Source of the DNA: a virus
Lineage: Duplodnaviria; Heunggongvirae; Uroviricota; Caudoviricetes
Direction: 5' to 3' (one strand)
IMG/VR virus record: IMGVR_UViG_3300045988_149737
DNA: 64,000 bases
The position numbers and the translations under genes were made by a program. The notes under the pieces are model-generated. The model worked only from the letters and a program-made list of their open reading frames with translations, was not told the origin of the DNA and made no database searches. Below are positions 9,750 through 63,050 of this stretch, piece after piece (positions within the stretch are counted from its first letter, which is position 1; each line of letters starts with the position of its first letter).

Positions 9750-9865
9750 AAAGAACAGTCGCCTTTCAATCATTTCCTGCCTGTATTTAATACTTTTCCG
9801 CCTGATAGGTTTAGTCAAAATGTAGCCATCGAAACGCAAATGTAACCAAACAGAAGGAGACTTAC

Positions 9866-23608: not shown

Positions 23609-24709
23609 TCACACTGCGCGGAATGCGATTTCGCCAGGTATTACTTCACCTTGCCAATACATTTGGGCAGCAACGCGATCTGCGAGGTCACGATAAATAG
23701 CCGTAAATTCGCTATCTGGACGACTAATAACGGTTGGTGTTCCGTTATCCAGATCTTCACGAAGTGAGATATGAAGTGGCATTTGGCCTAACAACAGCGT
23801 GTTGTATTTCTCGGCCAGTTTCTGTGCGCCACCAGTGCCAAAAATTGGCTCGTGATGACCGCAGTTACTGCAAATATGCACACTCATGTTTTCGACGATA
23901 CCCAGTACCGGCACTTCGACTTTTTCGAACATCACAATGCCTTTCTTCGCATCGATCAGCGCGATGTCTTGCGGCGTAGTTACCACAACCGCACCAGTTA
24001 CAGGAATGTTCTGCGCCAGCGTCAACTGAATATCACCAGTGCCCGGCGGCATATCGAGAACGAGATAGTCCAGATCAGGCCACAGTGTTTCTTGCAACAT
24101 TTGCATCAACGCCTTGCTCGCCATAGGGCCACGCCACACCATCGCGTTGTCGTCAGTGACCAGATAACCAATTGAATTGGTTGCCAGGCCATGAGACATA
24201 ATAGGTGCCATGTGAGTACCGTCTGGTGAGGTTGGACGTTGGTTTTCCGCGCCCAGCATGGTTGGAATTGATGGCCCGTAGATATCGGCATCAAGAATGC
24301 CAACTTTCGCACCTTCAGCGGCTAACGCCAGCGCAAGGTTTACCGCCGTGGAAGATTTACCTACCCCACCCTTGCCTGAGCTGACGGCGATAATGTTCTT
24401 AACGCCATTAATGCCTGGTTGGTTTTTAACGCGCTTCAGCGTGGCAATGTTGTGAGACAGCTTCCAGTCGATAGCCTTTGCACCAGTGATACGGAGCAGA
24501 TCACCACTACATTGCTCTTTCAGGTCTTCAAAAGGCTTATTCCACACGAAAGGCATGATTAGTTCGACATGCAGTGTGTCATCCATCAACGCAACATGGT
24601 GTAACGCTTTAAGCGTAGTCAGGTTGTGTTTCAGGGTTGGGTGCTGAAAATTAGCCAGCGTACCGGCTACCATTGCTCTCAGGGCATCCGGCGATTTGGA
24701 CTCGCTCAT
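23609..24709 (-). CDS. apbC: iron-sulfur cluster carrier ATPase ApbC/Mrp
   Basis: 366 aa; P-loop SSGKGGVGKSS, CxxC (CSNCGH); collinear with my recollection of enterobacterial Mrp; divergent from metG as in E. coli; RBS aggag. Confidence 0.9.
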   Translation of the reverse strand: MSESKSPDALRAMVAGTLANFQHPTLKHNLTTLKALHHVALMDDTLHVELIMPFVWNKPFEDLKEQCSGDLLRITGAKAIDWKLSHNIATLKRVKNQPGINGVKNIIAVSSGKGGVGKSSTAVNLALALAAEGAKVGILDADIYGPSIPTMLGAENQRPTSPDGTHMAPIMSHGLATNSIGYLVTDDNAMVWRGPMASKALMQMLQETLWPDLDYLVLDMPPGTGDIQLTLAQNIPVTGAVVVTTPQDIALIDAKKGIVMFEKVEVPVLGIVENMSVHICSNCGHHEPIFGTGGAQKLAEKYNTLLLGQMPLHISLREDLDNGTPTVISRPDSEFTAIYRDLADRVAAQMYWQGEVIPGEIAFRAV

Positions 24710-24866
24710 CCCGTCTCCTTTATTTTAATTTGCGCAATTGTCGCCTTGTAGTGTACTCCAGCTACGACATTTAATCATTTATGAGAAATGCTGTTATCAC
24801 ATGGCAGACATAAGGCCATTTTGTTACTATCAAGCCCCTTTTCACTACAAAGAAGTAATGCCTACT

Positions 24867-26900
24867 ATGACCCAAGTCGCGAAGAAAATTCTGGTGACGT
24901 GCGCGCTGCCGTACGCTAACGGCTCAATCCACCTCGGCCATATGCTGGAGCACATCCAGGCTGATGTCTGGGTTCGTTACCAGCGAATGCGCGGCCACGA
25001 GGTTAATTTCATCTGTGCCGACGATGCCCACGGTACGCCGATCATGCTGAAAGCACAGCAGCTTGGTATCACACCGGAGCAGATGATTGGCGAAATGAGT
25101 CAGGAACACCAGACTGATTTCGCAGGCTTTAACATCAGCTATGACAACTATCACTCGACGCACAGCGAAGAGAACCGTCAGTTGTCTGAGCTTATCTATA
25201 CTCGCCTGAAAGAGAACGGTTTTATTAAAAACCGCACTATCTCTCAGTTGTACGACCCGGAAAAAGGCATGTTCCTGCCGGATCGTTTTGTAAAAGGCAC
25301 CTGCCCGAAATGTAAAGCGCCAGATCAATACGGCGATAACTGTGAAGTCTGCGGCGCAACATATAGCCCGACTGAATTGATCGAGCCGAAATCGGTGGTT
25401 TCTGGCGCTACCCCGGTAATGCGTGATTCCGAACACTTCTTCTTTGATCTGCCTTCTTTCAGCGAAATGCTGCAGGCATGGACCCGCAGCGGCGCGTTGC
25501 AGGAGCAGGTGGCGAACAAAATGCAGGAATGGTTTGAATCCGGCCTGCAACAGTGGGATATCTCCCGCGATGCGCCTTACTTCGGTTTTGAAATTCCGAA
25601 CGCGCCGGGCAAATATTTCTACGTCTGGCTGGACGCGCCGATTGGCTACATGGGTTCCTTCAAGAATCTGTGCGACAAGCGCGGCGATACCACCAGCTTC
25701 GATGAATACTGGAAGAAAGACTCCACCGCCGAGCTGTACCACTTCATCGGTAAAGATATTGTTTACTTCCACAGCCTGTTCTGGCCTGCCATGCTGGAAG
25801 GCAGCAACTTCCGCAAGCCGACCAACCTGTTTGTTCATGGCTATGTGACGGTGAACGGCGCGAAGATGTCCAAGTCTCGCGGCACGTTCATTAAAGCCAG
25901 CACCTGGCTGAATCATTTTGACGCTGATAGCTTGCGCTACTACTACACCGCGAAACTCTCTTCGCGCATCGATGATATCGACCTGAACCTGGAAGATTTC
26001 GTTCAGCGCGTGAATGCCGATATCGTCAACAAAGTGGTTAACCTGGCCTCCCGTAATGCAGGCTTTATCAACAAGCGTTTTGACGGCGTGCTGGCAAGCG
26101 AACTGGCTGACCCTGAACTGTACAAAACCTTTACCGATGCCGCTGAAGTGATTGGCGAAGCATGGGAAAGCCGCGAATTTGGTAAAGCTATCCGTGAAAT
26201 CATGGCATTGGCTGACCTGGCTAACCGCTATGTCGATGAACAGGCTCCGTGGGTGGTGGCGAAGCAGGAAGGTCGCGATGCCGATCTGCAAGCGATTTGC
26301 TCTATGGGCATTAACCTGTTCCGCGTGCTGATGACGTACCTGAAACCGGTACTGCCGAAACTGACTGAACGTGCGGAAGCGTTCCTGAATACGGAACTGA
26401 CCTGGGATGGTATCCAGCAACCGCTGCTGGCACATAAAGTGAATCCGTTCAAAGCACTGTATAACCGCATCGACATGAAGCAGGTTGAAGCACTGGTGGA
26501 AGCATCCAAAGAAGAAGTGAAAGCCACCGCCGCGCCAGTTACTGGCCCGCTGGCTGATGATCCGATTCAGGAAACCATCACCTTTGACGACTTCGCCAAA
26601 GTTGACCTGCGTGTGGCACTGATTGAAAACGCGGAGTTTGTTGAAGGCTCTGACAAACTGCTGCGTCTGACACTGGATCTCGGTGGTGAAAAGCGTAATG
26701 TCTTCTCCGGCATCCGTTCTGCTTATCCAGACCCACAGGCACTGATTGGTCGTCACACCATTATGGTGGCTAACCTGGCTCCGCGTAAAATGCGCTTCGG
26801 TATCTCCGAAGGCATGGTGATGGCTGCTGGCCCTGGCGGAAAAGACATCTTCCTGTTAAGCCCGGATGCCGGTGCTAAACCAGGCCACCAAGTTAAGTAA
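24867..26900 (+). CDS. metG: methionyl-tRNA synthetase
   Basis: 677 aa from ATG at 24867 ([30 protein letters not shown]); matches E. coli MetG as I recall it; ORF track start at 24738 is an upstream in-frame extension. Confidence 0.95.
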
Positions 26901-27302: not shown

Positions 27303-27595
27303 ATATTACTCAATCCTACCAGGTGGCATTGATCAGTTCATCTCATACATCAGAGGAAGATGCTCGCCGATTCATGATCGCAAGCAATGAGCTGGATTGG
27401 GTTTCACAAATTGAGTACGGTTGCATAGTTCACGCCGGGTTACAGGACGATGACTGGAAAGATAACTTGCGTCGATATGGTATATCCGAGGGCGCGATTT
27501 CGAACATTCAGAAGGTACTTGATGTAGGCTTTGACTCTGTACATTTTGATTGTGGCGCACCGGTCGTTGAAGGGCTTGAGTGCTGGAACTGGTAA
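27296..27595 (+). CDS. hypothetical small protein
   Basis: 99 aa; overlaps upstream stop; RBS ggggagagggg. Confidence 0.45.
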   Translation: MLNITQSYQVALISSSHTSEEDARRFMIASNELDWVSQIEYGCIVHAGLQDDDWKDNLRRYGISEGAISNIQKVLDVGFDSVHFDCGAPVVEGLECWNW

Positions 27596-27699
27596 ATCTG
27601 AAAACATATTCAAACCGTTGATAATGGCGGTCACAATTTGATTCTTTTCTATAAGAATCCGTTGATCGCCACTACCCCCATTCCATACCCGCAATCACA

Positions 27700-28500
27700 T
27701 CCTTAAATTTCAATAAGTTATAGTTGTTTATACAATCAAGAAAACAACTGAATAACAGATCAACGAAACATCAACGCTTTCACCCGATTTGGTCTAAAAA
27801 ATTGACGTTTTCACACATCACTGCTTATACCCGTAATCCCACGCAGCAGATAGCGCCACAGCGTCCAAATTTCACCACAGACGACCCAACACACTACCAA
27901 CAAAAACACACGCTCAAAATCGCTCTCGTTGCGTTACACAACCATATAAACAACTTATTTTCAGGCATAACAAAACAACTAAATAACACATGTGCCATTA
28001 CCAAAAACAACCAACCTCTTTATGGCAGGCTACCGAAAAGACCCACCTCTTCTTCCCAGGCTACCGGACAACCAACCTAACTTTCACAGGCAATCCGAAA
28101 ACATTCATACGCGCGATACCCACGACACGCCATTCCCCAAACAGCGAAGAAACACCAGAATCACTGAAACCCCAACGAAGCCTGTAACCGCAAGGATTCT
28201 CTCAATCCCAAAAGACACGAAACAGAACAATCACGGGAAACGCCATTACCCAATACACGAATAACTACAAAAGCCTTTCACACACTCCAGACAAACAACT
28301 CAAACACAATAACGAAAGGAATCGCCCACCTGCCATTACTCCATACACGGAGAAGAACAATCACCAAAACGACGAGAACACCCCATAGAAGAACCACTGC
28401 AAAACGAACGAAACCACATACACCGACAGAGAGAACAACACACCCAATTCACCAACAGAAATAGTCGCCGTATAGAACATTCTGGAAGGAGTGAGCATTA
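27700..28500. other. ~800-bp non-coding tract with extreme strand compositional skew (A+C-rich, G- and T-poor on plus strand)
   Basis: By eye G is only around 10% on the plus strand; the only ORF (27724-28080) is low-complexity. Confidence 0.6.
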
Positions 28501-28584
28501 ACGCCTATAGAGAGGTTGAAACAGATAAAACACGAAGAAAACACAACATGTATAGCGAAGAAGCCAGGTATGTATAAGTGGGGA

Positions 28585-28615
28585 GGGAAGGAGGGGTGTC
28601 GCCTCCTTTTTCGTA
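28585..28615 (+). terminator. terminator-like hairpin inside the non-coding region
   Basis: aggagg-ggtgtcg-cctcct followed by ttttcg. Confidence 0.4.
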
Positions 28616-28674
28616 TTTATTCAACTCCTGATTTTATCCCCCGTAACACCCCTACGGTCAGCCTTCGGTCCATA

Positions 28675-28815
28675 CAGGGAAAAGGCTGCATCCCGCTACA
28701 GAAACGGCTGGGTTGCCTTCGGGGAACGGCTGGAGGTTTTCAGGGAAACGGTCGAGTTGCCTGTGTGGATTTCGGGAAAAGGCTCGATGCCGGTTCAGGA
28801 ACGGCGGCGTACCGG
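28675..28815. repeat. six tandem ~22-bp iteron-like repeats (core GGGAAA[A/C]GGC)
   Basis: cagggaaaaggctg / cagaaacggctgg / ggggaacggctgg / agggaaacggtcg / gggaaaaggctcg / aggaacggcggcg in head-to-tail order. Confidence 0.65.
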
Positions 28816-29188
28816 TATAGCGTGAGGGAGAGTTGCGGCTACCCACCTGTAATGTGCGGGAAGAAGAGAGGCGCTAACGTGCAGGCGAACTTACTTACCG
28901 CTGGATTCCCTCTGAATGCCCAACTACAGCGTAATTGTGCCAGACAGCCAACGGGTCACAATCGATTTCAGTAGGTTTTCGGGGAGAGGATTATTCTGCC
29001 CACCAGCCACTTTCGGCCACCAAATCAGAATAATGTAAAAAGTGTACTCGGTACTGAACCTGAAAACTCACTGCCAAAACAACATTCACCGGAATAAAAT
29101 CCTTTTTCGCCTTTGCGTTATTGCGATAATAACGCCAACAAGAAAACAACATATTTAGACGTTGTAGAAACGAAGTGAGGATGAAGAG

Positions 29189-29407
29189 ATGATTAAGATG
29201 CCTGTGACGGTTGAGGTGTGGGGCGTGGATTCCCTGGCTGAGTGTCTGGATGCAGTGGGGCCGGAGTTGTACCGCAAGTTGTGGTCGTTCGTCCCGGCAG
29301 AAGGGGAATCGCCCAAAGGGAAGGATATCTGGCACCTGCTGAGTGAAGATGAAAAGCGGGAGCTGGTGGGCGCGGTACACAGCGAGTTCCCGGACGACGA
29401 AGATTAA
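29189..29407 (+). CDS. hypothetical small acidic protein
   Basis: 72 aa; family-1 operator and RBS upstream; hairpin terminator downstream. Confidence 0.45.
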   Translation: MIKMPVTVEVWGVDSLAECLDAVGPELYRKLWSFVPAEGESPKGKDIWHLLSEDEKRELVGAVHSEFPDDED

Positions 29408-29546
29408 GAGTGAGGCCACCAGCACGGTGGCTTTTGTCGCTATTAACCTCCGGGGCAGCGCAGCACCGTAACGATATACTTTGTGGCCGTTTTCTTACTG
29501 GTATTGTTTACGCAATTCAGAAAACATGTTGTTTAAGGATTGCTTT

Positions 29547-29876
29547 ATGTTTGCAAATATCGACATCAACCAAATCAAGAAATTAACTCAAAAAGAGTTT
29601 GATCAGTTTTATGAGTTAGAAGGTTGGTCTTCCACTCTGATCAATTCGCGGTGGGTGCTTGAGCTGATGACTCGTGATGACGCACCTGCTTTGATGATTT
29701 GCGACATGGGTGAAGATGCTGACTTTATGGATATGAGCGAATTTTGTGTGGACACATACAACCGCAGCCAGAAGTACTACTTCACATGCGATAGCGAAAA
29801 TGACGTGATTTCTAAGGTCTATCTTCACCTCGTCCAGCATTGGGACGTTCAGGAGTTTCTTGAGGTATTCGCGTAA
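29547..29876 (+). CDS. hypothetical small protein
   Basis: 109 aa from ATG at 29547 (RBS aagga); promoter and operator upstream; hairpin aagccagc-att-gctggctt downstream. Confidence 0.45.
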   Translation: MFANIDINQIKKLTQKEFDQFYELEGWSSTLINSRWVLELMTRDDAPALMICDMGEDADFMDMSEFCVDTYNRSQKYYFTCDSENDVISKVYLHLVQHWDVQEFLEVFA

Positions 29877-30030
29877 TCCCAACCAAAGCCAGCATTGCTG
29901 GCTTAACTTAATCTGTAGCCGCAGGGAAGAACCTGCATATCGCTCATGCGCCTGATCAATATGCTTTGTAGCCGTTTTCTTACTGGTATTATTTACGCCA
30001 TTGAGAAAACAAGTTGTTTACGGAGTTGTG

Positions 30031-30342
30031 ATGAAAAGTTCATTGGTTCTTGGTCTGGACAAAGACCAGAAGAGAAAAGAGAAGCCTGCACTGGTTGCTC
30101 AACTAACTTTGCTGGACATCGTTGCCAATGGAACATCTATTCGTCTGTTCCGTGAAACAGCGGTGTCTTTCGATAAAAACACCTTTACTCGTTATGTAAT
30201 GAATGTTCGCCGCCAGCGTGGAAAAGGCTGGATGGCGTTTCAAAGAATGTGGCCGGAACATCAGCTCGAACTGGCCTTGATGGAAGTTAACCGCGTGGCC
30301 CAGCAAGAGATTCAGAGAGCATCAGTGATGGCAATAGCCTGA
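30031..30342 (+). CDS. hypothetical small protein
   Basis: 103 aa from ATG at 30031; ORF track start 30001 is a TTG inside the operator. Confidence 0.45.
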   Translation: MKSSLVLGLDKDQKRKEKPALVAQLTLLDIVANGTSIRLFRETAVSFDKNTFTRYVMNVRRQRGKGWMAFQRMWPEHQLELALMEVNRVAQQEIQRASVMAIA

Positions 30343-30377
30343 TAATGTGCAAGTGGTAATTAGTCGACAGTACGACA

Positions 30378-30408
30378 GCCCCGCCATCCTTACGGGGCTT
30401 TTTTGTTT
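30378..30408 (+). terminator. rho-independent terminator
   Basis: agccccg-ccatcctta-cggggct followed by tttttgtttt. Confidence 0.6.
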
Positions 30409-30468
30409 TGTAAGTACATACTTACGATCATAGAATATAAAAATAACCAATACACTACGGAGAGTGAA

Positions 30469-30864
30469 ATGACCGTTAAACGCGAAAAACTGACAGTTGA
30501 TGTTTACTATGCCTCTGAAACCGCCGAAGGTAAGAATGTGGCAAAAATCACCGTTGTTACGTACAACACCGAAACTGGTGCCGAAGTACAGGCCAGTACG
30601 ATCGTGCGTAAAGGTGATGCCTCCGGCGGCGAGTACGCGACTCAATACCAGTCCATTCTCGATGCAACTGACCCGCTGCTGCTGAAAATCGAGAACTACT
30701 TCCGCCAGGTTGATGAAGAGGTGTTTGAAACCATGATGAATATGGTTAATTCCGTATTCGCCTCCAGCCTGAACACCAGCACCACCTGGATTGGCCAGTA
30801 CGGTCTGCGTATTACCTCCGGCATTCCTGCTGATACCTTAATCCCTGAAAGCGTATTCGCTTAA
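30469..30864 (+). CDS. hypothetical protein
   Basis: 131 aa from ATG at 30469 (RBS acggagag); family-2 palindrome gtaagta-ca-tacttac at 30410-30425 upstream. Confidence 0.45.
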   Translation: MTVKREKLTVDVYYASETAEGKNVAKITVVTYNTETGAEVQASTIVRKGDASGGEYATQYQSILDATDPLLLKIENYFRQVDEEVFETMMNMVNSVFASSLNTSTTWIGQYGLRITSGIPADTLIPESVFA

Positions 30865-30981
30865 TCCTCTTTAAATGGCGCGTAAACCGCGCCATTTTCT
30901 TATGCCCGATAATAATTTGTTTTCTGCCTTATCTGATTTGTGAAAATGATTTCACTGAAGCAACTTAATAAGGAAACCATC

Positions 30982-31356
30982 ATGGGACTTGATATCTACA
31001 TCGAGACGCAGCCAAAAAACGATCTGAATAATGAGGCATCCAGAAAGCGGGTTGCTCACTTCCGTAAGTTCAATGCGCTCGTTGGGTGGATGGAGCGCAA
31101 CGTAGGTGAAGTCGAAAATTGTGAGCTTTTAGAATTAACGATGAATGACATTTGTTTTCTGAAGGCTCATTTGATGCACATAAACGAAAGCAATTGCGAA
31201 GAGTACTTGCCTACTCGGGAAGGTTTTTTCTTCGGCAGTCAGGAGTACGATGAAGGTTACTGGCATGATGTGGGGGAGTTGAAAGAGCTTGTGGAAGATC
31301 TGATTAAGAACCACGACTTTCACAATAACAGACTGACCTTCTGCGCCTGGTGGTAA
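30982..31356 (+). CDS. hypothetical protein
   Basis: 124 aa from ATG at 30982 (RBS aaggaaa). Confidence 0.45.
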   Translation: MGLDIYIETQPKNDLNNEASRKRVAHFRKFNALVGWMERNVGEVENCELLELTMNDICFLKAHLMHINESNCEEYLPTREGFFFGSQEYDEGYWHDVGELKELVEDLIKNHDFHNNRLTFCAWW

Positions 31357-31357
31357 A

Positions 31358-31501
31358 TATGGGCGATTTCAAGAAACGCCTGAAGGAAAGAGCCGAGATG
31401 GCCAGAAAGCAAAACGCCTCTTCTGTCATCAGATACGCAAGGCAGTTTAGTCGCAACAACAAATCAGTTGAGGAAAAGATCCTTAGCGTAATCGAGCGAT
31501 A
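31358..31501 (+). CDS. hypothetical small basic protein (47 aa)
   Basis: ATG 1 nt after upstream stop; below ORF-track cut-off; followed by a terminator. Confidence 0.3.
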
Positions 31502-31507
31502 ATTATT

Positions 31508-31531
31508 AAGACCACCAGCATTGGTGGTCTT
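31508..31531 (+). terminator. hairpin terminator (shared sequence family)
   Basis: aagaccacca-gca-ttggtggtctt; near-identical hairpins at 29414-29437 and 31979-32002. Confidence 0.5.
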
Positions 31532-31691
31532 AAATGACTTTTAATAACCGAAGGTTAATTTTAAACCTGGCTATCAACTTCCAGAACCTTTCTTGTGTAT
31601 TCAGCCTGAATTAACTTCTTTTCTGCCTTATCTACACTGCGATAATTACACCAACAAGAAAACAACATGTTTACGCAGTGAGGATATGCAC

Positions 31692-31973
31692 ATGACTGAT
31701 TTCACCATTACCCCAAAAGCACAAAATGTATTCCTTGAATCATGGCTGGACTTGCCGGAAACAGAACAGCAAGAAATGGATCATGTGGAATATGACGAGC
31801 AGGTAAGCACGCGATTCTTCCACTTTGAGGGCTGCGTTTACGATATTGCCGACTTCATGAGAGATGACCGCTTCCCTGGATGGCACGCAAGCTATCCACT
31901 TAACGCCTTCGCCATGCTGATGATCCGTGTGGGTGATTCAGGGGATACCATCGACATCGGTCTGCTCCACTAA
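31692..31973 (+). CDS. hypothetical small acidic protein
   Basis: 93 aa from ATG at 31692 (RBS tgaggat 7 nt upstream). Confidence 0.45.
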   Translation: MTDFTITPKAQNVFLESWLDLPETEQQEMDHVEYDEQVSTRFFHFEGCVYDIADFMRDDRFPGWHASYPLNAFAMLMIRVGDSGDTIDIGLLH

Positions 31974-31978
31974 AGACT

Positions 31979-32002
31979 AAGGCCACCAGCATTGGTGGCC
32001 TT
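31979..32002 (+). terminator. hairpin terminator (shared sequence family)
   Basis: aaggccacca-gca-ttggtggcctt. Confidence 0.5.
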
Positions 32003-32177
32003 AAATGACCATCTTGTTTCCCGCAGGCTAAAAACACCAACCTCTTACCTCCAGGCAACCGACAAACCCACCTGTTCCCGTCCGGCTACCGCAACTTTCC
32101 ACTTTGACGCCTTATTCGTACAACGATAATTAACACCAACAAGAAAACAATTTGTTATTTACGATAAGGAATTAATC

Positions 32178-32660
32178 ATGAATTTTATCGCTACTGTAAA
32201 CGCACCCGCACATGGCAATATCGCTGTAACGTTCTCTGACATTGAAAAACGAGTACTTGGTGCATGGCGCGACAATGAGACGGTAGAACTGTCAGAACAA
32301 GAAAAATGCATTATTGCACGCGACATCATTGGCAATCGTCGTTACTCGCGGGTATTTGAGAAAGCATATGTGGTAAATTCTGGATTCGGAACGTTCGTCT
32401 TCCCGGTACGCTCCGGGCGATTCTGCCAGTCCAAGCTGATTGAGTTCGCTACGCAGATTTCTGTCTGGATTAAAACTCAATCGTCGTTCAAATTTTCCGA
32501 CGATGAAGCAGTATCGCAGGGGATGCGGATCGCCAACAATGCGATTAAATGCAAAAATATTACGTATACCGCTGGCGTTGACACATGGAAACTGTTTTGC
32601 GCTAACTTTATGCTGAATGTATACGCAAGCAACCGCATCCACATCCTTGATGGCGTGTAA
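32178..32660 (+). CDS. hypothetical protein
   Basis: 160 aa; TTTGAC-17 bp-ATAATT promoter and operator aaaacaatttgtt upstream; RBS aagga. Confidence 0.5.
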   Translation: MNFIATVNAPAHGNIAVTFSDIEKRVLGAWRDNETVELSEQEKCIIARDIIGNRRYSRVFEKAYVVNSGFGTFVFPVRSGRFCQSKLIEFATQISVWIKTQSSFKFSDDEAVSQGMRIANNAIKCKNITYTAGVDTWKLFCANFMLNVYASNRIHILDGV

Positions 32661-32709
32661 CTGAGAAGAGGGCCAGAAACGGCCCTTTCTCTATAGCCAC
32701 CAGCTGCCG

Positions 32710-32800
32710 CAGGGAAATTTTCAGAAACGGCGAGGAACGCATTCATGAGCCGACGGGGAACGGCCAGGATTTTTTCGGGAAACGGCTGCATTCGCCTTTA
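32710..32800. repeat. second array of GGGAAACGGC-type repeats
   Basis: cagggaaatttt / cagaaacggcg / ggggaacggcc / gggaaacggctg; same core as 28675-28815. Confidence 0.55.
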
Positions 32801-33274
32801 TATAGAAAAAACATCGGGAAGCTGGTGGAATCCAACCAGCGGTTGTCGGACAGGTGAGCGGGGAAAATTATGATGACTTTCGTCGCCTGAGACATCCAGA
32901 TTTCTTTCGTAGCGTAATCACATATGTGATTAAGTGGTGTGATTATGTGAAAAATCACGCGCACATAATACGCGAGCGGATACGGAACAAAACAAAATGC
33001 CGATCCGCGCCGACAATTAAACGCGGATCATAAAGCAAGAATAAAAGCCAATGATTAACCATACACCATAGCGCAATATAACGCGTTTTAAGCGCGTTAA
33101 TGTGTTGAGTAATGGGTATGTACTGGTAAGGATATAAAAGCGCGTCTGTGGCGTTATTTTGGCGCTTATTTTATGTTGTTGGAGTGAGTCAAAGACAATA
33201 AAAAAGCGCCATCATTGGCGCGTTATGGTGGAAGTATTAGAAACGAAAAAAGCGCCCATAGTGGGCGCTAGATT

Positions 33275-33505
33275 TTATTTATGTAAACTGATTTCAAATC
33301 CCATTTCTACAAACGCTTTTAACATTAAAAATATATCAGCGTCATTCACGTCTGCTTTTTTTCGCTCCTGGTCGCTCAATAAGTCAATTTTGCGCGTCGT
33401 TTCATCGATAAACTCGACTGCGCGCCCAGCGTAACCAGCGATCCCAGCGATGCGATTAACAAAATATTCATTGCGCACGTTAACGCCAGAGATAAGAATA
33501 AACAT
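33275..33505 (-). CDS. hypothetical small protein
   Basis: 76 aa; flanked on both sides by minus-strand hairpin terminators (gcgccca-tag-tgggcgc at ~33250 and ~33525). Confidence 0.45.
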   Translation of the reverse strand: MFILISGVNVRNEYFVNRIAGIAGYAGRAVEFIDETTRKIDLLSDQERKKADVNDADIFLMLKAFVEMGFEISLHK

Positions 33506-33552
33506 GATTAAGCTCCTTAAAAGCGCCCATAGTGGGCGCCAGATTCCATTAA

Positions 33553-34203
33553 TTACGCTTTGAAAGCATCAGCCAGATAGTTATAGAAATCATTTTTAAT
33601 AAAGCGATATTGCTGCGTACCAGCTTTTGCGCTTCCCATTCCTTTGACTTTCTCAACAAGTCCAAGACGTTCGCAAAGATTGATAAGCTGGTTGGCTTGA
33701 GTGTATCCTGCGTCTAATTTTATTTCGTTGGCTTTTTTCGCTTCATTCATTAAATCGAAAACAGCGCCATTTGTGAACGTCTCGATCTCGTCGTTAATCA
33801 TATCGATTAATGCGAATACACGAGATCCGGACATATCAGCGACGGAATAAACACACTTTCCAGCTTTAATGGATTTAACCAGATAAACCAGTTTTTCCAG
33901 AGAGTAACTATTAGCCATTGCATCACGGAAAAATACTTCTGGCGCTTGTTTGCTTGCTTTGATCGCATAGTAGAAAACAGAGCACAATTTTTCGTCTTCT
34001 ACAGCGTTTACAACGTTGTTGATGAAGTAAGCAAGTTTAGTGGTCGCAGCTTGCATATTTGCTTTATCTGCTTTGGTGTGCGTACCATTTTTATAATGTT
34101 CGTTATATGTTTGAGTTGCCAGATCTGCTTTTTCGCGCAGTTCATCGGATACAATGGAAGCAGCTTCAACGATGGATTTTTTAGAAATGATAATGTTAGC
34201 CAT
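33553..34203 (-). CDS. hypothetical protein
   Basis: 216 aa; RBS aaggaaa 7 nt upstream on minus strand; lower GC than surrounding phage genes. Confidence 0.55.
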   Translation of the reverse strand: MANIIISKKSIVEAASIVSDELREKADLATQTYNEHYKNGTHTKADKANMQAATTKLAYFINNVVNAVEDEKLCSVFYYAIKASKQAPEVFFRDAMANSYSLEKLVYLVKSIKAGKCVYSVADMSGSRVFALIDMINDEIETFTNGAVFDLMNEAKKANEIKLDAGYTQANQLINLCERLGLVEKVKGMGSAKAGTQQYRFIKNDFYNYLADAFKA

Positions 34204-34798: not shown

Positions 34799-35323
34799 TC
34801 AAAAAGGCAAAATTCGTTCAACCCAATCGAACAAAACAACTATTTTTCTACCGTTCTCGACACGTAGTGTAACCTGACAAGCATCTGCGCCTGCTGACAC
34901 CCCCTCAATTTCACGGCCATCCGCCATGTACACCCTTATAGATTTGTTTGCTTTGTAGGCTTGGTTGCAAATTGCAAAAAAATCGCGGCGTGATGGCCGA
35001 TTATCGACATAATCAGGGTGAACTGTTAGTCGACCTTTGAAATCGTGAGCGATACTGTCAACCACACCTGATTCAATTGTACTAATGCGTTCAAGTGGGA
35101 GCCTTATACGATTTTCTTTGTCAAAAGGGGCTGGGCAAAGGTCAACTTTGTTACGAGATGGCATGAGGCCATAAACGTACATGCAAAACGCCTGGCCATC
35201 TTCGAGAGTGACCCTTACAGGAATTTGTTCTCTGCGCCAGAACATCAGTAGTTTTTCAACGTTAGTGTAATCTCGCGGCCAGAGTTCAGCTTGGATACCG
35301 TAGGTAATATCTTTGGTTGTCAT
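34799..35323 (-). CDS. hypothetical protein
   Basis: 175 aa from ATG at 35323, 4 nt after the lipoprotein stop; ORF-track version to 35401 overlaps the lipoprotein gene. Confidence 0.5.
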   Translation of the reverse strand: MTTKDITYGIQAELWPRDYTNVEKLLMFWRREQIPVRVTLEDGQAFCMYVYGLMPSRNKVDLCPAPFDKENRIRLPLERISTIESGVVDSIAHDFKGRLTVHPDYVDNRPSRRDFFAICNQAYKANKSIRVYMADGREIEGVSAGADACQVTLRVENGRKIVVLFDWVERILPF

Positions 35324-35327
35324 GTCA

Positions 35328-35792
35328 TCACAGAGTTGTTGGCAGAATGTCGATGTCACCAGAATTGCTGGTGAACACCCTGAACGCTTTTGTGTCTCCA
35401 TTCTTCAGAGTCGTTTCTCGCTCTTGACGAGCGGGGTTTAGAGCACATAAACCTGCACCTTCAAGAGATGCACCCACAATTAATTCTCCGGCATTTAAAT
35501 GAAAAGTCGCTTTTTCGCCTGTAGCCAGTTTTGCGACAGTTTCGCCATTGATGAAAATGGAAGCATCACATCCAGCTCCTACAAAACCTGTGTCTCTCAT
35601 TACCACCAACGTAGCTGGCGCTGCGCTTTGATACTTGAACACTTTGGCCTGCGGTGCTGGTTTGGCGTCATGGATTGATATTGGACGTGATTGGCACGCG
35701 GTAAGCATCAACACTGGTAACGTTAGTAGAGGGAGAAGCGAGTGTTTCATGTTAGTTTTAGAACAGAAAGTGAACAGTATGGGAGACTTCAT
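35328..35792 (-). CDS. putative lipoprotein
   Basis: Lipoprotein signal MKHSLLPLLTLPVLMLTAC (lipobox LTAC) if started at internal Met (35750); RBS agggaga supports the upstream Met at 35792. Confidence 0.55.
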   Translation of the reverse strand: MKSPILFTFCSKTNMKHSLLPLLTLPVLMLTACQSRPISIHDAKPAPQAKVFKYQSAAPATLVVMRDTGFVGAGCDASIFINGETVAKLATGEKATFHLNAGELIVGASLEGAGLCALNPARQERETTLKNGDTKAFRVFTSNSGDIDILPTTL

Positions 35793-37741: not shown

Positions 37742-38422
37742 ATGGATGTAAAAATCACGATTTTGCAGGTTGATGTTGCCAACCTTCGCCCGAATACCTG
37801 GAACACCAATTCGGTTGGTGCGCAGAATTTTGAAAAACTGAAAGGTTCTATCGAAAAATTGGGCTTTTTTAAGCCAATTTTGGCTCGTGAACTTGAAGAT
37901 GGATTTTTTGAAATCCTCGGCGGCGAACATCGCTGGCGTGCCGCTATTGAGCAAGGAATTTCAACGGTTCCGGTGCTTTCTGTGGGCAAAATTAGCGATG
38001 TCGTAGCTAAACAGATGTCACTGGTGGACAACGAGCGATACGGTGAAGACGACCAAATCGCATTGCAACGCTTCATTGAAGAAATTCAGTCAGAACTTGA
38101 CTATCAACTGTCTGAAATCGCCCCGTATGACGACGAAATCTCGATGGTTTTAGCAAAAGAGGCTGCAATCGACCTTGAAGCACTGGAGGCGTTGTCTCGT
38201 GGTAGTGATGAGCCTGTCGATACCGACAAACGAGAGAAAACCGAACGTGTGGGTGCGGAACATCAGACCATGCGCTTCAAAGTAACTTTCGATGCGTCAG
38301 ATCGTGTTGCAGAAACCATAAAAAACATCATCAAAGAGCAGGCTATTAACACCGGTAATGAAATGGAGAACGCTGGTGAGGCTCTGGTGTGGCTGGTCGA
38401 CTACTACAAGGAGCGTATGTAA
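37742..38422 (+). CDS. ParB/Srx-like N-terminal domain protein 1
   Basis: FEILGGEHRWRAAIEQGISTVPV matches the ParB N-domain arginine-rich motif; ATG at 37742 (ORF track GTG at 37724). Confidence 0.7.
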   Translation: MDVKITILQVDVANLRPNTWNTNSVGAQNFEKLKGSIEKLGFFKPILARELEDGFFEILGGEHRWRAAIEQGISTVPVLSVGKISDVVAKQMSLVDNERYGEDDQIALQRFIEEIQSELDYQLSEIAPYDDEISMVLAKEAAIDLEALEALSRGSDEPVDTDKREKTERVGAEHQTMRFKVTFDASDRVAETIKNIIKEQAINTGNEMENAGEALVWLVDYYKERM

Positions 38423-39090
38423 TGACCAAAAAGTTTGAAATCGTATATCGCGACCCGGCAGATCTTATTCCCTATGAGATGAATGCCAAAAAGCATGATG
38501 AACAGCAGATCAGAGATCTGGCCGCAGCCATTAAAAAGCGCGGATTTGACCAGCCAATTACGGTCGATAAGAACGACGTAATTATTACTGGCCACGGCCG
38601 CCGTGAGGCTGCAATTTTTGCTGGACTTGAGCGTGTACCGGTTATTGTTCGTGATGATCTGAGTGATGACGAGGTACGTGCAAAGCGCCTTGAAGATAAC
38701 CGACTTGCCAGCATTGATTACGATGCAATTAAGCTACAGAAAGAGCTTGAGTCGCTTGTTCTGGACGATATCGAGGTTTTCGGCTTTGAAGAGCGTGAGT
38801 TGAATGTTCTTGTTGGCAGTATGACAGAAGAAATGGACACCGACTCGCTAGTTATCGATCTTGGCGAAGAAACTAAACGACAGAAGGATGAACACACCGA
38901 GATCAGTCGCGAAGTTGCAGCGGAAGAAGTACGTGTTGTCGACGTATTGGGCTTTAAAACGCTTCCTGCTGGCTCTGCCATTGTTGTTGGTGATTTGCTT
39001 GCCCACATGGAAGAAATGACGGGAGAAAGCGGGGTAGACGCATTTGTGGCATATGCGGAGAAGATCTCTTCCGGGGAGATGGCTGCATGA
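38422..39090 (+). CDS. ParB/Srx-like N-terminal domain protein 2
   Basis: IITGHGRREAAIFAGLERVPVIV; taATG overlap with upstream gene, RBS aaggag. Confidence 0.7.
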   Translation: MTKKFEIVYRDPADLIPYEMNAKKHDEQQIRDLAAAIKKRGFDQPITVDKNDVIITGHGRREAAIFAGLERVPVIVRDDLSDDEVRAKRLEDNRLASIDYDAIKLQKELESLVLDDIEVFGFEERELNVLVGSMTEEMDTDSLVIDLGEETKRQKDEHTEISREVAAEEVRVVDVLGFKTLPAGSAIVVGDLLAHMEEMTGESGVDAFVAYAEKISSGEMAA

Positions 39091-61800: not shown

Positions 61801-63050
61801 ACGCGAAAGAAATCGAGGCGATGAAGTCAACTGTAGATAGCAGTTTAGCCACCATTGAAGAAATGAAAAAAACCGTGGCTGAAGTTGAACGTTCTAGTGC
61901 CGAAGTTACGACAAATATTGAGGCATTGGCTAAAACAAACATCGATCTTGCTTTGCGTCAGGATGAAGATCAGCACAAGCAGATGGTGAGTAATGCGAAG
62001 ATCACCACAACTCAGAAGGCTTTTGCAGACGATATATCTGCAATGGCTACGAAAATGGAGGAAATTCGCGCTGAAATAAATGAGGATATCAGAGCTTCAA
62101 TCACTGAAGAAACAACGGCTCGTGTAGATGCTGATAATGCTATTGCAAGCAGAATCACCAAACTTGAATCAAAGATTAACGATGATATTTCTGCCGCAAT
62201 TGTGAGTGAACAAGAGGCACGAGCTAGTGCCGATGAAGCACTTTCAAAAGAAATACTATCGTTACAAGCCAAAATTGAAGGCGATATTAGTGCAGCTATA
62301 TCTGAAGAAAAAATTGCCCGAGCAACTGCTGATGAATCTTTAGCACAACAGATAACCACATTGAAGAGCCAGACGGGTAAAGATATTAAGGCGGCTGTAG
62401 CAGAAGAGACGAAAGCCAGAACTGACGCTGATTCGGCTTTGGCTTCTAGCATCACTAATCTACAGGCGCAAACGAGCAAAGATATTAATGCCGCGATTAC
62501 GTCTGAGGCGACTGTGCGCACAAACGCCGACAATGCTCTAAGTGGACGAATTGACACCTTAAAAGCATCAGTTGATGGAAATACAGCGACAATTCAAGAG
62601 CAGGCAACTGCTATTGCTGATACTAACAAAAAGGTTTCAACCGCGTGGACGTTGAAGATGGAAACGTCAACAAGTGGTGGGCAAAAATATGTCGCAGGTA
62701 TTGCGCTTGGAATTGACACCACGGGGCTTTCCCAGTTTTTGGTGCAAGCAGATCGATTTGGTCTAGTCAACTCAGTTAACGGAAAGATCACCACACCATT
62801 TGTTATCGAAAACAGCGTTGCATACATGAATGGTGCGTATATTAAGGATGGTACTATCACAAATGCAAAGGTAGGTGACTTGCAATCAACAAACTTCGTA
62901 AGCGGACGAGCCGGATGGCGATTTGGTAAAAATGGAACGCTTGAGATCAACGGCAATAGTGGCGGCAATGGGAGATTGGTTATAAATGGTCAGAGGATTG
63001 ACGTTTATGATGACAATAATGTCCTTCGAGTGAGGATTGGTCGGCTTTGA
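58884..63050 (+). CDS. central tail fibre / host specificity protein (lambda gpJ-like)
   Basis: 1388 aa; order M-L-K-I-J conserved; C-terminal third carries periodic ~26-aa helical repeats. Confidence 0.85.
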   Translation: MNMEQFKKKKLPLFIAGAGGKKSSKSSSRTPVEADDTVNSRAMAAILDLLGEGVIGGLVNGARSIFIDDLPIVNEDGSSNFSGITWDFRDGSQDQTPMSGFDFVETPKSVNIQLKKTHYVTVSIDNDEADRVRVIMKFPSLRSIDKKTGDTNGTTVEYKFQIANGDSTFVDVVAEGEKSVGIKLTAKKTGVYYRSYELKLPKPGRAYKVRVVRITDDNSSQYLYNDTWVDSIGEIVDTPMNYPNSVLVGLKVNSEQFGSTMPSRSYLVRGLKIRVPSNYNESSNTYVGVWDGTFKLLSSSNPAWILFDLLTNERYGLGQFVSESMIDLGQLYQIGRYCDEEVDDGFGGKEKRFAINTQITSRQDAYRLIQDIAGAFRGMVFWAGGMVNIMQDSPSDPVMMFTNSNVKDGLFTYKGSARKDRPSVALVTYNNKEDGYKQNIEYVEDQDAMRRYGERKTEVVAFGCTSRGQAHRVGLWLLYTARMESDVITFTAGLDASFLMPGETVLIQNKYRAGKRNSGRIVAFTKNSVTLDAPVSLAKGGCFIRILNQEGKIVERDVLETGENITKVTFSKALSSAETPVLNGVWTITEPDLEPMRVRIVNIAQGETPGSFDITAVENNPSKYEAIDNGATLIPQNTTVLDPTYSKPSNLQITEGTYLSSPGNLSVKLTATWEGKSPEYWISWRRSDENNVSNWQSARVTEEQYEIVNVAENGRYDFQLYAVSFNGKKTEIISTVYQVLGTMTPPDAPTSLTAVGDYRNVILNWVNPDSVDLDHINVYASQANNLDTAKLIAESASTTFTHAGLGDSETWYYWVRASNKRGMLSPPNSNLGTEATTRDVLSFLTGKITSSELGQTLLEEIDSKVSQEAVDSIYQQMEESLKILDDKFTDADQRLEEAQNNLKTEVSGTVSKVEHALKEVANSNAALIQLQETVSEQGKAVAGAVEAANAALDNSSALIAEEREARVEGDLANAKEIEAMKSTVDSSLATIEEMKKTVAEVERSSAEVTTNIEALAKTNIDLALRQDEDQHKQMVSNAKITTTQKAFADDISAMATKMEEIRAEINEDIRASITEETTARVDADNAIASRITKLESKINDDISAAIVSEQEARASADEALSKEILSLQAKIEGDISAAISEEKIARATADESLAQQITTLKSQTGKDIKAAVAEETKARTDADSALASSITNLQAQTSKDINAAITSEATVRTNADNALSGRIDTLKASVDGNTATIQEQATAIADTNKKVSTAWTLKMETSTSGGQKYVAGIALGIDTTGLSQFLVQADRFGLVNSVNGKITTPFVIENSVAYMNGAYIKDGTITNAKVGDLQSTNFVSGRAGWRFGKNGTLEINGNSGGNGRLVINGQRIDVYDDNNVLRVRIGRL

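What the first reader, a model, noticed from the sequence alone, without database searches (positions are those of the whole stretch)
32660..33275. Second iteron-like array plus TGTGATTA palindromes and stacked minus-strand terminators
The GGGAAACGGC-type repeats recur at 32710-32800, followed by an inverted repeat aatcacatatgtgatt, further TGTGATTA copies, and at least three hairpins of the gcgccca...tgggcgc type preceded by A-runs (minus-strand terminators). Together with the array at 28675-28815 these repeats bracket the ORFan cassette region, as paired iteron sets bracket control regions in iteron plasmids.
Basis: seen in the sequence. Interest (0 to 1): 0.6.

Follow-up and report, generated by a model that had tools for sequence, protein, structure and literature searches.

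The report
Conserved repeat arrays bracketing phage-plasmid cassettes
Two conserved arrays of a short repeated motif (GGGAAACGG, one copy every 22 bases) mark both edges of a swappable gene-cassette region in a widespread family of phage-plasmids; they are real and under selection, but they are not the plasmid's replication iterons and are more likely docking sites for a regulator, possibly the element's own flagellin-repressor-like RNA-binding protein.

Summary
The window is an SSU5/pHCM2/pMT1-type phage-plasmid, about 98% identical to Escherichia phage Cyrano. GGGAAACGG-type units cluster at 32712-32790 and at 28672-28808, and nowhere else in the 108-kb genome. They are all on the + strand and spaced in multiples of 11 nt, mostly 22. 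Cores are invariant and spacers vary across hundreds of plasmids, including pHCM2 and Y. pestis pMT1. Each array follows a + strand terminator. Together they bracket a cassette region of 1.5-4.5 kb.

The iteron-plasmid reading fails. RepA lies outside the window, flanked by different iterons (CTATAGTGGAT) with DnaA boxes. The window has no DnaA box and no RepA-type iteron.

The stacked terminators are the expected end zone of two convergent transcription units. The TGTGATTA palindrome is specific to the E. coli lineage.

New lead: 1.5 kb away lies an FljA-family gene (PF03614, E=2.5e-84). Its model shows two helix-plus-five-strand units and no helix-turn-helix. FljA blocks fliC mRNA translation. 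The E. coli fliC leader's best match in the window is a 12-mer inside array 2, but the reverse profile search found nothing. My best guess (about 0.4) is that the arrays are docking sites for this regulator on + strand RNA. A DNA-level role remains possible.

The parts
32664..32692 (+). Intrinsic terminator of the upstream + strand gene (32178-32660, phrog_1641). Its loop carries a copy of the motif (AGAAACGG; UGGAAAC or CGGAAAC in relatives).
   Evidence: RNAalifold on 43 sequences: 10 pairs, with compensatory changes at 6/34 and 14/27. The loop is conserved while the stem varies. The hairpin persists when the upstream gene is replaced by an unrelated one (L120).
32712..32790 (+). Array 2. 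Full units at 32717-32734, 32750-32767 and 32772-32789. Half-units GGGAAATTT at 32712, GGAACGC at 32735 and AGGATTTTTT at 32765. The last unit, TTTTCGGGAAACGG, is invariant in 14 lineage representatives.
   Evidence: Spacings are 33 and 22 nt. The motif cores are identical in E. coli, Klebsiella, Enterobacter, Salmonella and Yersinia plasmids.
32815..32870 (+). Degenerate trailing units (CGGGAAGC at 32815, GCGGGGAAAA at 32860) and the right arm AGCTGGTGG (32820-32828), which pairs with CCACCAGCT (32697-32705) to enclose the array in the window lineage.
   Evidence: The closing helix is absent in pHCM2 and L057, so it is not universal.
32914..32949 (.). Perfect 18-bp palindrome TAATCACATATGTGATTA, then a 13-bp tandem duplication (TGTGATTAAGTGG x1.9). 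Only TGTGATTATGTGAA is shared by all relatives; it is a possible extended -10 (TGtGATTAT) on the + strand.
32958..33030 (-). Two - strand hairpins each followed by a T-run (32974-32958 and 33030-33001). They are poorly conserved outside the E. coli lineage.
33142..33175 (.). GC-rich hairpin(s) with T-runs on both strands (GCGCGTCTGTGGCGTTATTTTGGCGC TTATTTT).
33201..33269 (-). Tandem terminators ending the - strand operon (37659 to 33275). T1 is 33269-33251 (AGCGCCCACTATGGGCGCT + TTTTTT, bidirectional). T2 is 33221-33206 (GCGCCAATGATGGCGC + TTTTTT). Both are nearly invariant in 11 relatives. T1 recurs at 33522-33539.
   Evidence: (D16, I18).
28585..28611 (+). Strong + strand intrinsic terminator immediately upstream of array 1.
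   Evidence: conserved in alignment A2.
28672..28808 (+). Array 1, the paralogue. Six units with spacing 22, 22, 22, 31, 22 nt. It lies under a spurious ORF (28570-28974, CYRAN_104).
   Evidence: No PHROG or Pfam hit for the ORF. PhiR41_1 lacks exactly one 22-nt unit, which would break the frame. RefSeq annotates no gene here in 9 plasmids.
34799..35322 (-). FljA-family regulator (174 aa), the candidate ligand of the arrays.
   Evidence: Pfam PF03614 E=2.5e-84 over the full profile, plus a sub-threshold Hfq hit. AF2 model: H20-31 + 5 strands and H112-124 + 5 strands. Conserved in relatives at 54-100% identity.
32003..32095 (+). Second repeat family (about 30-nt units x3, CAGGCTAMC...ACCNACCTCTT) upstream of the phrog_1641 promoter. 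A paralogous set lies at 28004-28100, so the two repeat families occur in the same order twice.
   Evidence: (D2, D4).

Best explanation
The finding covers the 614-nt non-coding zone between two convergent transcription units of an SSU5/pHCM2-type phage-plasmid. It has two parts.

(1) A conserved module: an intrinsic terminator with a GGAAAC loop, followed by an array of direct repeats (core GGGAAACGG, 22-nt register). A paralogous module lies 4 kb upstream. The two modules mark the borders of a region where promoter-gene-terminator cassettes are exchanged between relatives.

(2) A terminator stack that ends the opposing - strand operon.

The arrays are not origins or iterons of the RepA replicon. 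I propose they are multi-site docking arrays for a sequence-specific protein. The most likely ligand is the element's own FljA-family regulator (34799-35322), acting on + strand RNA. The arrays would be either cis elements at transcript ends or leaders, or decoy sites that buffer the free regulator.

Shown: the arrays are real, unique in the genome, phased and selectively conserved. They are independent of RepA. An FljA-family gene lies next to them, and its model has a two-fold helix-plus-five-strand layout.

Inferred: that this protein binds the arrays, that binding occurs on RNA, and what binding does.
For: Arrays are unique and non-random.

Cores are conserved and spacers variable. TTTTCGGGAAACGG is invariant across 14 lineage representatives even where the neighbouring protein has dropped to 30% identity.

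Spacings of 11, 21-23, 31-34 or 44 nt account for 326 of the 331 true gaps in 103 distinct arrays.

The terminator-plus-array unit persists when the upstream gene is replaced.

The arrays are always on the + strand, the sense strand of the whole cassette region.

The motif also sits in the loop of a covariation-supported RNA hairpin.

RepA iterons are different and located elsewhere.

The regulator is a full-length PF03614 match, E=2.5e-84. Its AF2 layout is two helix-plus-five-strand units with no helix-turn-helix.

FljA-type repressors prevent fliC mRNA translation (PMC2652032, citing Bonifield & Hughes 2003 and Yamamoto & Kutsukake 2006).

The E. coli fliC leader's single best match in the window, and the fliC-leader HMM's best hit in 237 kb of phage-plasmid DNA, is TGAGCCGACGGG at 32746-32757, inside array 2. 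The arrays make up about 0.2% of the sequence.

The 5'-proximal hairpin of the Salmonella fliC leader (ACGGTGAGAAACCGTGGG) scores 7.5 bits on the array matrix. The background frequency of scores of 8 bits or more is 2.4e-4 per position.

Klebsiella plasmids keep both the regulator and the arrays. K. pneumoniae lacks flagella (my own knowledge), which implies a target inside the element.
Against: The reverse, unbiased test failed. An HMM of array 2 searched against 819 kb around 105 fliC genes gave no hit at any fliC leader.

The 12-mer match itself has E = 0.2-3.6, and it is confined to the E. coli lineage of plasmids.

The arrays sit just downstream of terminators and have no convincing promoter of their own, so it is unclear how much they are transcribed. 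In LF82 lysogens the ORF over array 1 is only about 1.5x local background.

No conserved RNA structure beyond the terminator was found. Fold z-scores are -2.8 and -1.8 in the window but about 0 in pHCM2 and L057.

Strict 22-bp phasing is what a double-stranded DNA-binding array would show.

Y. pestis pMT1 keeps array 2 although its regulator is frameshifted.

The Sm-like reading of the regulator rests on secondary-structure order only. Mean pLDDT is 71, no fold search was left, and the Hfq hits are below threshold.

Co-occurrence of regulator and arrays is not independent evidence, because every homologue found lies in the same syntenic family.
Confidence: 0.4

Rival explanations
1. The arrays are double-stranded DNA binding arrays in the iteron, centromere or boundary sense, for an unidentified protein. 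Candidates are one of the two ParB-N-domain proteins at 37742-39090, the conserved phrog_1513 protein at 33553-34203, or a host factor. They could serve a second (lytic) origin, partition or pairing of the two sites, or insulation of the cassette region.
For: Direct repeats in one orientation at 22-bp (two-turn) spacing, kept constant while spacer sequence changes. This matches the geometry of iterons and of ParR-type centromere repeats (my own knowledge). There are two arrays 1.5-4.5 kb apart in every relative. The arrays lie after terminators, where little RNA is expected. ParB-like genes and T4-like replication and recombination genes (UvsW, UvsY, gp32-like) are encoded by the element.
Against: No Rep-like gene is adjacent. 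The window has no DnaA box and there is no AT-rich stretch at the arrays. RepA's own iterons differ. The partition loci of family members differ between relatives and lie elsewhere (Cyrano ParA at 29307-29975). ParB sites are normally palindromic (my own knowledge). The region is a point of convergent, not divergent, transcription.
Confidence: 0.27
2. The arrays are GGA-rich decoy RNA for a conserved host RNA-binding protein such as CsrA, that is, a CsrB-like sponge carried by the phage-plasmid.
For: By my count on the sequence, there are about 9 GGA triplets in roughly 180 nt in each array, close to the density in CsrB (my own knowledge). Several sit in CAGGGA or AAGGGA contexts. The motif is invariant across hosts whose CsrA is nearly identical, which would fit a host ligand.
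Against: No Rfam family matches, even at E <= 10. The conserved core extends well beyond GGA (AAACGG is invariant), which CsrA does not require. There is no discrete promoter-to-terminator sRNA unit. GGA motifs are not consistently placed in predicted hairpin loops.
Confidence: 0.1
3. The arrays have no function of their own. They are relics of an old segmental duplication, or homology patches that merely allow recombination to swap cassettes.
For: Two repeat families occur in the same order at both sites, consistent with an ancient duplication. The content between the arrays is highly variable. Repeated promoter and terminator modules in the cassettes look like recombination substrates.
Against: A neutral relic would not keep 9-14-nt cores invariant while the spacers between them diverge. 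It would not keep unit spacing constant across E. coli, Klebsiella, Enterobacter, Salmonella and Yersinia plasmids, nor across a lineage whose flanking proteins are 30-60% identical.
Confidence: 0.08

Closest known systems
Iterons of theta-replicating plasmids and prophages (P1 incC/incA, RepFIB, F, R6K, lambda ori)
   Same: Arrays of 3-6 direct repeats in one orientation. Unit spacing is about 22 bp. Cores are conserved and spacers variable. There are two separated sets on one replicon.
   Different: No cognate Rep gene lies between or beside the arrays. The element's RepA has different iterons at another locus. There are no DnaA boxes and no AT-rich unwinding element. The arrays bracket accessory cassettes, not a rep gene. 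The motif also sits in an RNA terminator loop.
FljA operator in the 5' leader of fliC mRNA (Salmonella phase variation; E. coli flk/flj-type repressors)
   Same: A PF03614 protein is encoded 1.5 kb away. The motif is purine-rich (GRGAAAC) like the 5'-proximal hairpins of enterobacterial fliC leaders (GGGU-GGAA-ACCC; ACGGU-GAGAA-ACCGU). There is a 12-nt identity with the E. coli leader. The motif has the same sense orientation as local transcription.
   Different: The fliC leader has a single site in a 5'UTR next to a ribosome-binding site. Here there are multi-copy arrays downstream of terminators with no gene behind array 2. Profile-level similarity is not significant. Binding was not tested.
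Protein-sponge RNAs (CsrB/CsrC/RsmY/RsmZ for CsrA; CrcZ for Hfq/Crc)
   Same: Many copies of a short purine-rich motif are packed into 100-200 nt of non-coding sequence. The density of GGA is similar.
   Different: There is no Rfam match and no defined sRNA transcription unit. The core is longer (GGGAAACGG). The spacing is a regular 22 nt. The candidate ligand is a plasmid-encoded tandem-domain protein, not CsrA.
Promoter-early stem-loop (PeSL) regulatory cassettes of T4-type phages; phage morons
   Same: The region between the arrays is a string of small genes. Each has its own repeated sigma-70 promoter or leader and its own repeated stem-loop terminator. Gene content differs between relatives.
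   Different: This describes the cassettes, not the border arrays. No equivalent border arrays are described for PeSL regions, to my knowledge.

Membership tests
Plasmid replication iterons (Rep_3 / IncFIB / P1-type origin) | Tandem direct repeats of about 17-22 bp with helical phasing | tested here: met
   Spacings of 22/21/23 nt dominate. 11, 31-34 and 44 nt make up the rest in 103 distinct arrays. Units are listed.
Plasmid replication iterons (Rep_3 / IncFIB / P1-type origin) | Cognate initiator gene adjacent to or between the repeat sets | tested here: not met
   The only RepA is at Cyrano 60633-61688, outside the window. Genes between the arrays are small PHROG families of unknown function.
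Plasmid replication iterons (Rep_3 / IncFIB / P1-type origin) | Repeat sequence matches the iterons bound by the replicon's Rep | tested here: not met
   The repeats flanking RepA are CTATAGTGGAT/ACAGTGGAT type. The window holds only 3 one-mismatch copies of this motif, as expected by chance, and none lies near the arrays.
Plasmid replication iterons (Rep_3 / IncFIB / P1-type origin) | DnaA box(es) and an AT-rich unwinding element next to the repeats | tested here: not met
   TTATNCACA occurs 0 times in the window. GC content is 0.52-0.58 over the arrays and 0.39-0.44 beside them.
Plasmid replication iterons (Rep_3 / IncFIB / P1-type origin) | Origin or incompatibility activity | not testable with these tools
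   This needs cloning of the arrays and replication or incompatibility assays.
FljA (PF03614) operator | A PF03614 protein is present in the same element | tested here: met
   Window 34799-35401(-) matches PF03614 at E=2.5e-84 over profile positions 1-170 of 170. It is present in relatives.
FljA (PF03614) operator | Sequence resembles the fliC mRNA leader that FljA acts on | tested here: inconclusive
   For: a 12-nt identity is the top hit of the leader in the window and in 237 kb of phage-plasmid DNA, and it lies inside array 2. The Salmonella leader scores 7.5 bits on the array matrix. Against: the array HMM finds no fliC leader in 819 kb.
FljA (PF03614) operator | Site lies in a 5'UTR close to a start codon | tested here: not met
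   Array 2 is followed by no gene. Array 1 ends about 380 nt before the next start codon, and that gene has its own promoter.
FljA (PF03614) operator | Direct binding by the protein | not testable with these tools
   This needs a gel shift or CLIP with the plasmid regulator.
CsrB/Rsm-type sponge sRNA | Match to a curated covariance model | tested here: not met
   No Rfam hit at gathering score over the window. No CsrB or Rsm hit at E <= 10 over 27500-33600.
CsrB/Rsm-type sponge sRNA | Discrete transcription unit with GGA motifs presented in hairpin loops | tested here: inconclusive
   No strong promoter was found. Only 3-4-bp stems are predicted, with one compensatory pair. Fold z-scores range from -2.8 to +0.8 depending on lineage.
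Intrinsic (Rho-independent) terminators | GC-rich stem-loop followed by a U-run, conserved with compensatory changes | tested here: met
   32664-32692: covariation. 33251-33269 and 33206-33221: scan hits and near-invariance in 11 relatives.

The most novel reading that the evidence does not exclude
The two arrays are transcribed decoy RNAs that titrate a plasmid-encoded, tandem Sm-like FljA-family translational repressor. That repressor's other target would be the host flagellin leader. This would be a phage-plasmid-borne protein/sponge circuit, analogous to CsrA/CsrB but built from unrelated parts, carried by pHCM2 of S. Typhi, pMT1 of Y. pestis and hundreds of E. coli, Klebsiella and Enterobacter plasmids.
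Probability: 0.15. Interest if true: 0.8.

Novelty: new variant of a known kind. Interest (0 to 1): 0.5.

Why it matters
SSU5/pHCM2-type phage-plasmids are common in clinical Enterobacterales. Array 2 was found in 779 PLSDB plasmids, including S. Typhi pHCM2 and Y. pestis pMT1. Their biology outside replication and structural genes is largely unannotated.

This work shows that two roughly 130-nt non-coding arrays are among the most strongly conserved sequences of the accessory region. They are mis-annotated as an ORF in at least one record. They delimit the hotspot where small accessory genes are exchanged.

It also links them, tentatively, to an overlooked FljA-family regulator that appears to be a tandem Sm-like protein. 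If that link holds, it gives a testable handle on how these elements control host motility genes or their own cassette genes. It would also add a new RNA-protein regulatory pair.

If the arrays instead act on DNA, they are candidates for a second origin, a pairing site or a boundary element.

Tried and rejected
- Rfam at gathering score and at E <= 10: nothing relevant.
- RNAalifold on 43 array-2 sequences: only the terminator is supported. Single-sequence folds are inconsistent between lineages.
- Tandem Repeats Finder does not see the arrays.
- The idea that array 1 is coding (CYRAN_104). No family hits, and a 22-nt unit deletion in PhiR41_1 breaks the frame. Rejected.
- The idea that the 28100-28600 segment is a decayed copy of phrog_1641. 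tblastn found nothing. Rejected.
- RepA iterons or DnaA boxes near the arrays: absent.
- Array HMM against fliC loci: negative.
- A search for FljA homologues outside the SSU5 family, to test co-occurrence independently. All hits were syntenic family members or a degraded chromosomal copy.
- The afdb50 fold library was unavailable.
- The primary FljA papers (PMC1347349, PMC1544088) are not held.
- The regulator against Hfq by hhalign: not significant. The PDB profile search gave no relative.
- GC skew gives no origin signal; it follows gene orientation.
Full report
IDENTITY OF THE WINDOW

The 2-kb stretch around the finding is 98.3% identical to Escherichia phage Cyrano (pLF82). It is 95% identical to phage PhiR41_1 and more distantly related to Klebsiella phage-plasmids and Salmonella phage SSU5. 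Cyrano is an SSU5-like phage-plasmid kept at about 5.5 copies per cell (PMC9928086).

Annotation of Cyrano places RepA at 60633-61688. This is about 4.6 kb before the point that corresponds to window position 1, so the replicon's initiator is outside the window.

THE OBSERVATION

The region 32661-33274 is non-coding. It lies between a + strand gene (32178-32660, phrog_1641) and a - strand gene (33275-33505, phrog_1585).

- The motif GRAAMGGC occurs 16 times in 64 kb. Nine copies fall in two + strand clusters, at 28679-28805 and 32676-32786.
- A position-weight matrix built from 40 distinct units scores at least 12 bits only in the two arrays, plus one site at 30214. This holds in the window and in the whole 108-kb Cyrano genome.

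ANATOMY

Array 1 has six units spaced 22, 22, 22, 31 and 22 nt. Array 2 has full units at 32717, 32750 and 32772, with half-units in between.

Across 103 distinct array sequences from related loci, unit spacings are 22 (184 cases), 21 (45), 23 (17), 11 (17), 31-34 (60) and 44 (3). Each array starts 20-65 nt after a + strand intrinsic terminator (28585-28611; 32664-32692).

The second terminator is supported by compensatory changes. Its loop (AGAAAC, UGGAAAC or CGGAAAC) is itself a copy of the motif.

A second repeat family (about 30-nt units, three copies) occurs about 0.7 kb upstream of each array, at 28004-28100 and 32003-32095. The two sites therefore share a two-part architecture, although the sequence between the parts is unrelated.

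CONSERVATION

The 614-nt spacer matches 779 PLSDB plasmids, from E. coli, Klebsiella, Enterobacter, Salmonella (including pHCM2), Yersinia pestis (pMT1), Citrobacter and Cronobacter. No gene is annotated under the match in almost all listed records. Array 1 matches 713 plasmids.

In alignments of 10-43 sequences the motif cores are invariant or nearly so, while the spacers between them differ. TTTTCGGGAAACGG is identical in all 14 lineage representatives. This includes a divergent lineage (L057) whose phrog_1641 homologue is only 30% identical.

In L120 the gene upstream of array 2 is an unrelated 279-aa protein, yet the terminator and array are retained.

Both arrays are present, in the same orientation, in essentially every related locus with enough flank. 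They are 1.5 to 4.5 kb apart. The genes between them vary from two to about nine. pMT1 has lost the cassette region and array 1 but keeps array 2.

The arrays are therefore under purifying selection as repeated short sites with fixed spacing. They delimit a variable region of small genes. Each of those genes carries its own repeated sigma-70 promoter and leader and its own GGCCACCAGC...GGTGGCC terminator.

WHY THEY ARE NOT THE PLASMID'S ITERONS

The RepA gene of Cyrano is flanked on both sides by repeats of the type CTATAGTGGAT/ACAGTGGAT. On the upstream side these are accompanied by GATC-rich repeats and TGTGGATAA boxes, which is a classical IncFIB/P1-like origin.

That motif is not enriched in the window, and the window has no DnaA box. 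The arrays are GC-rich (0.52-0.58) with no AT-rich flank. No initiator-like gene lies between or beside them. GC skew simply follows gene orientation.

The rest of the finding is explained by context. Position 32660-33275 is where the long + strand block meets the - strand operon 37659-33275. The conserved tandem terminators T1 and T2 (33269-33206) end that operon.

The 18-bp palindrome and the extra TGTGATTA copy exist only in the E. coli/Cyrano lineage. Part of this comes from a 13-bp tandem duplication. All relatives share only TGTGATTATGTGAA.

SEARCH FOR A LIGAND

The adjacent protein phrog_1641 gave a confident model (pLDDT 90.6) with no structural or sequence relatives. It is also dispensable for array retention.

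Scanning the neighbours showed that the gene annotated as a transcriptional regulator at 34799-35401 (true start about 35322) is a full-length member of PF03614, "repressor of phase-1 flagellin" (FljA), at E=2.5e-84. It also has a sub-threshold Hfq match.

Its AF2 model (pLDDT 71) consists of two successive units, each one helix followed by five strands (H20-31 + E36-85; H112-124 + E128-173). This is the order of elements in Sm/Hfq domains. There is no helix-turn-helix. This is a reading of topology only, because no fold search remained.

FljA-type repressors prevent translation of fliC mRNA (PMC2652032, citing Bonifield & Hughes 2003 and Yamamoto & Kutsukake 2006). That FljA binds the leader RNA directly is my recollection of the 2006 paper, which is not held here.

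I fetched fliC leaders from E. coli K-12 and from 105 genome loci.

- Most Enterobacteriaceae share GACGGCGAUUGAGCCGA(C/A)GGGUGGAAACCC. This can form two short hairpins, the second being GGGU-GGAA-ACCC.
- Salmonella and Citrobacter have ACGGUGAGAAACCGU followed by GGGCAACAGCCC.

These purine-rich GRGAAAC loops resemble the array core and the loop of the 32664-32692 terminator.

QUANTITATIVE TESTS OF THE fliC LINK

- The E. coli leader's single best local match in the window (both strands) is the 12-mer TGAGCCGACGGG at 32746-32757, inside array 2.
- An HMM of 20 distinct leaders has the same site as its top hit in 237 kb of phage-plasmid DNA.
- The scores themselves are not significant (E 0.2 and 3.6). 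The arrays occupy about 0.2% of the sequence, so a chance top hit would rarely fall there.
- The Salmonella leader hairpin scores 7.5 bits on the array matrix. The background frequency of scores of 8 bits or more is 2.4e-4 per position.
- Against this, an HMM of array 2 searched against 819 kb of fliC loci recovered no leader. The 12-mer is restricted to E. coli-lineage plasmids. Other lineages share only CCGAAGGG plus GAAAC with Enterobacter-type leaders.

Other observations bearing on the link:

- Klebsiella plasmids keep both regulator and arrays. K. pneumoniae has no flagella (my own knowledge), so the regulator must have a target other than fliC.
- In pMT1 the regulator is frameshifted but array 2 is intact.
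- All regulator homologues found belong to the same syntenic family, so co-occurrence is not independent evidence.

RNA OR DNA?

For RNA:
- The candidate ligand belongs to a family described as preventing translation of fliC mRNA.
- The motif is always on the sense strand.
- One copy sits in the loop of a covariation-supported RNA hairpin.
- One pair in the array shows a compensatory change.

For DNA:
- The spacing is a rigid 22 bp.
- The arrays are placed after terminators.
- There is no own promoter.
- No consistent RNA fold appears across lineages.

Published lysogen transcript levels exist only per annotated ORF. They show weak signal over array 1 (14, against a local background of about 9.5) and moderate signal for phrog_1641 (25).

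VERDICT

The iteron-plasmid interpretation is supported only in form, not in function.

The most likely reading is that the arrays are conserved multi-site docking arrays for a regulator. The element's FljA-family protein acting on + strand RNA is the best specific candidate (about 0.4).

A DNA-level array for another protein is the main rival (about 0.27). A CsrA-type sponge (0.1) and a functionless relic (0.08) follow.

I found no paper describing these arrays among those the searches returned.

Noticed in passing
window 27700-28450 (+ strand): About 750 nt of extreme A+C richness (GC skew -0.4 to -0.48, AT skew up to +0.57). No PHROG or Pfam ORF is present. A cassette-type promoter and leader lie upstream (TTCAAT-17-TACAAT around 27709-27736; my reading of the sequence), and the strong terminator at 28585-28611 ends the stretch. 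Relatives have 1.4-1.9 kb without annotated genes here. The Cyrano ORF drawn over it (CYRAN_102) is 6x above background in lysogens. It may be a long non-coding, G-poor RNA. In Cyrano this stretch is about 760 nt longer than in the window.
   Followed up: partly
window 28004-28100 and 32003-32095: A second conserved repeat family, three units of about 30 nt (CAGGCTAMC(G)AAAAMACCMACCTCTT). It lies about 0.7 kb upstream of each GGGAAACGG array. The second set sits directly upstream of the phrog_1641 promoter (TTGACG at 32104). CAGGCTAAAAACACC.ACCTCTT and CCAGGC.ACCGA are invariant in 9 relatives.
   Followed up: partly
window 29089-32180: Each small cassette gene has its own repeated module. The module is a sigma-70-like promoter (GATAAT or TATTAT -10 preceded by TG), then a leader with the near-palindrome AAGAAAACAAnnTGTTT(A), an RBS, the gene, and a GGCCACCAGC-loop-GGTGGCC terminator. 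It resembles the PeSL and moron cassettes of T4-type phages. The shared leader palindrome suggests one common regulator.
   Followed up: partly
window 34799-35322 (-): The gene annotated as a transcriptional regulator is an FljA-family protein (PF03614). Its AF2 model is two helix-plus-five-strand units (Sm-like order). Its start is coupled to the preceding lipoprotein-like ORF (35328-35792; ...CTGTGATGACATGACA...). It is a frameshifted pseudogene in Y. pestis pMT1 and is interrupted by ISKpn26 in pLR-62-2_1.
   Followed up: yes
window 9831-9854 (+), just upstream of the gene starting at 9866: A 24-nt stretch, GAAACGCAAATGTAACCAAACAGA, matches the Enterobacter-type fliC leader (GAAACCCAAATCTAACCAAACAGA) at 22 of 24 positions (E=8.5e-4 in the window search). 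It lies in the 5' leader of a 269-aa gene of unknown function. It may be a second flagellin-leader-like element.
   Followed up: no
L005 36150-36640 and 37720-38340 (Cyrano 60150-62340, outside the window): The true RepA origin region. Several sets of CTATAGTGGAT/ACAGTGGAT iterons lie on both sides of repA. There are two near-duplicate blocks, each of about five iterons followed by GATC-rich repeats and a TGTGGATAA box.
   Followed up: partly
window 23609-26900: The phage-plasmid carries a full methionyl-tRNA synthetase gene (24801-26900). Next to it, on the opposite strand, is a 366-aa Mrp/NBP35-type P-loop ATPase (PF10609, E=1e-101) that is annotated as MinD or ParA-like. The latter is 9x above background in LF82 lysogens.
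   Followed up: no
window 33248-33282 and 33519-33553: The same terminator cassette (AAAAGCGCCCATAGTGGGCGCYAGATT) follows two consecutive - strand genes. PhiR41_1 has an extra 67-aa gene inserted between these genes. This suggests that gene-plus-terminator units are also swapped on this side.
   Followed up: partly
window 28570-28974 (Cyrano CYRAN_104) and Cyrano CYRAN_102/103: ORFs annotated in the Cyrano record over array 1 and over the A+C-rich region are very probably not genes. They have no family hits, they are not annotated in RefSeq relatives, and the frame is broken by a 22-nt unit deletion in PhiR41_1.
   Followed up: yes
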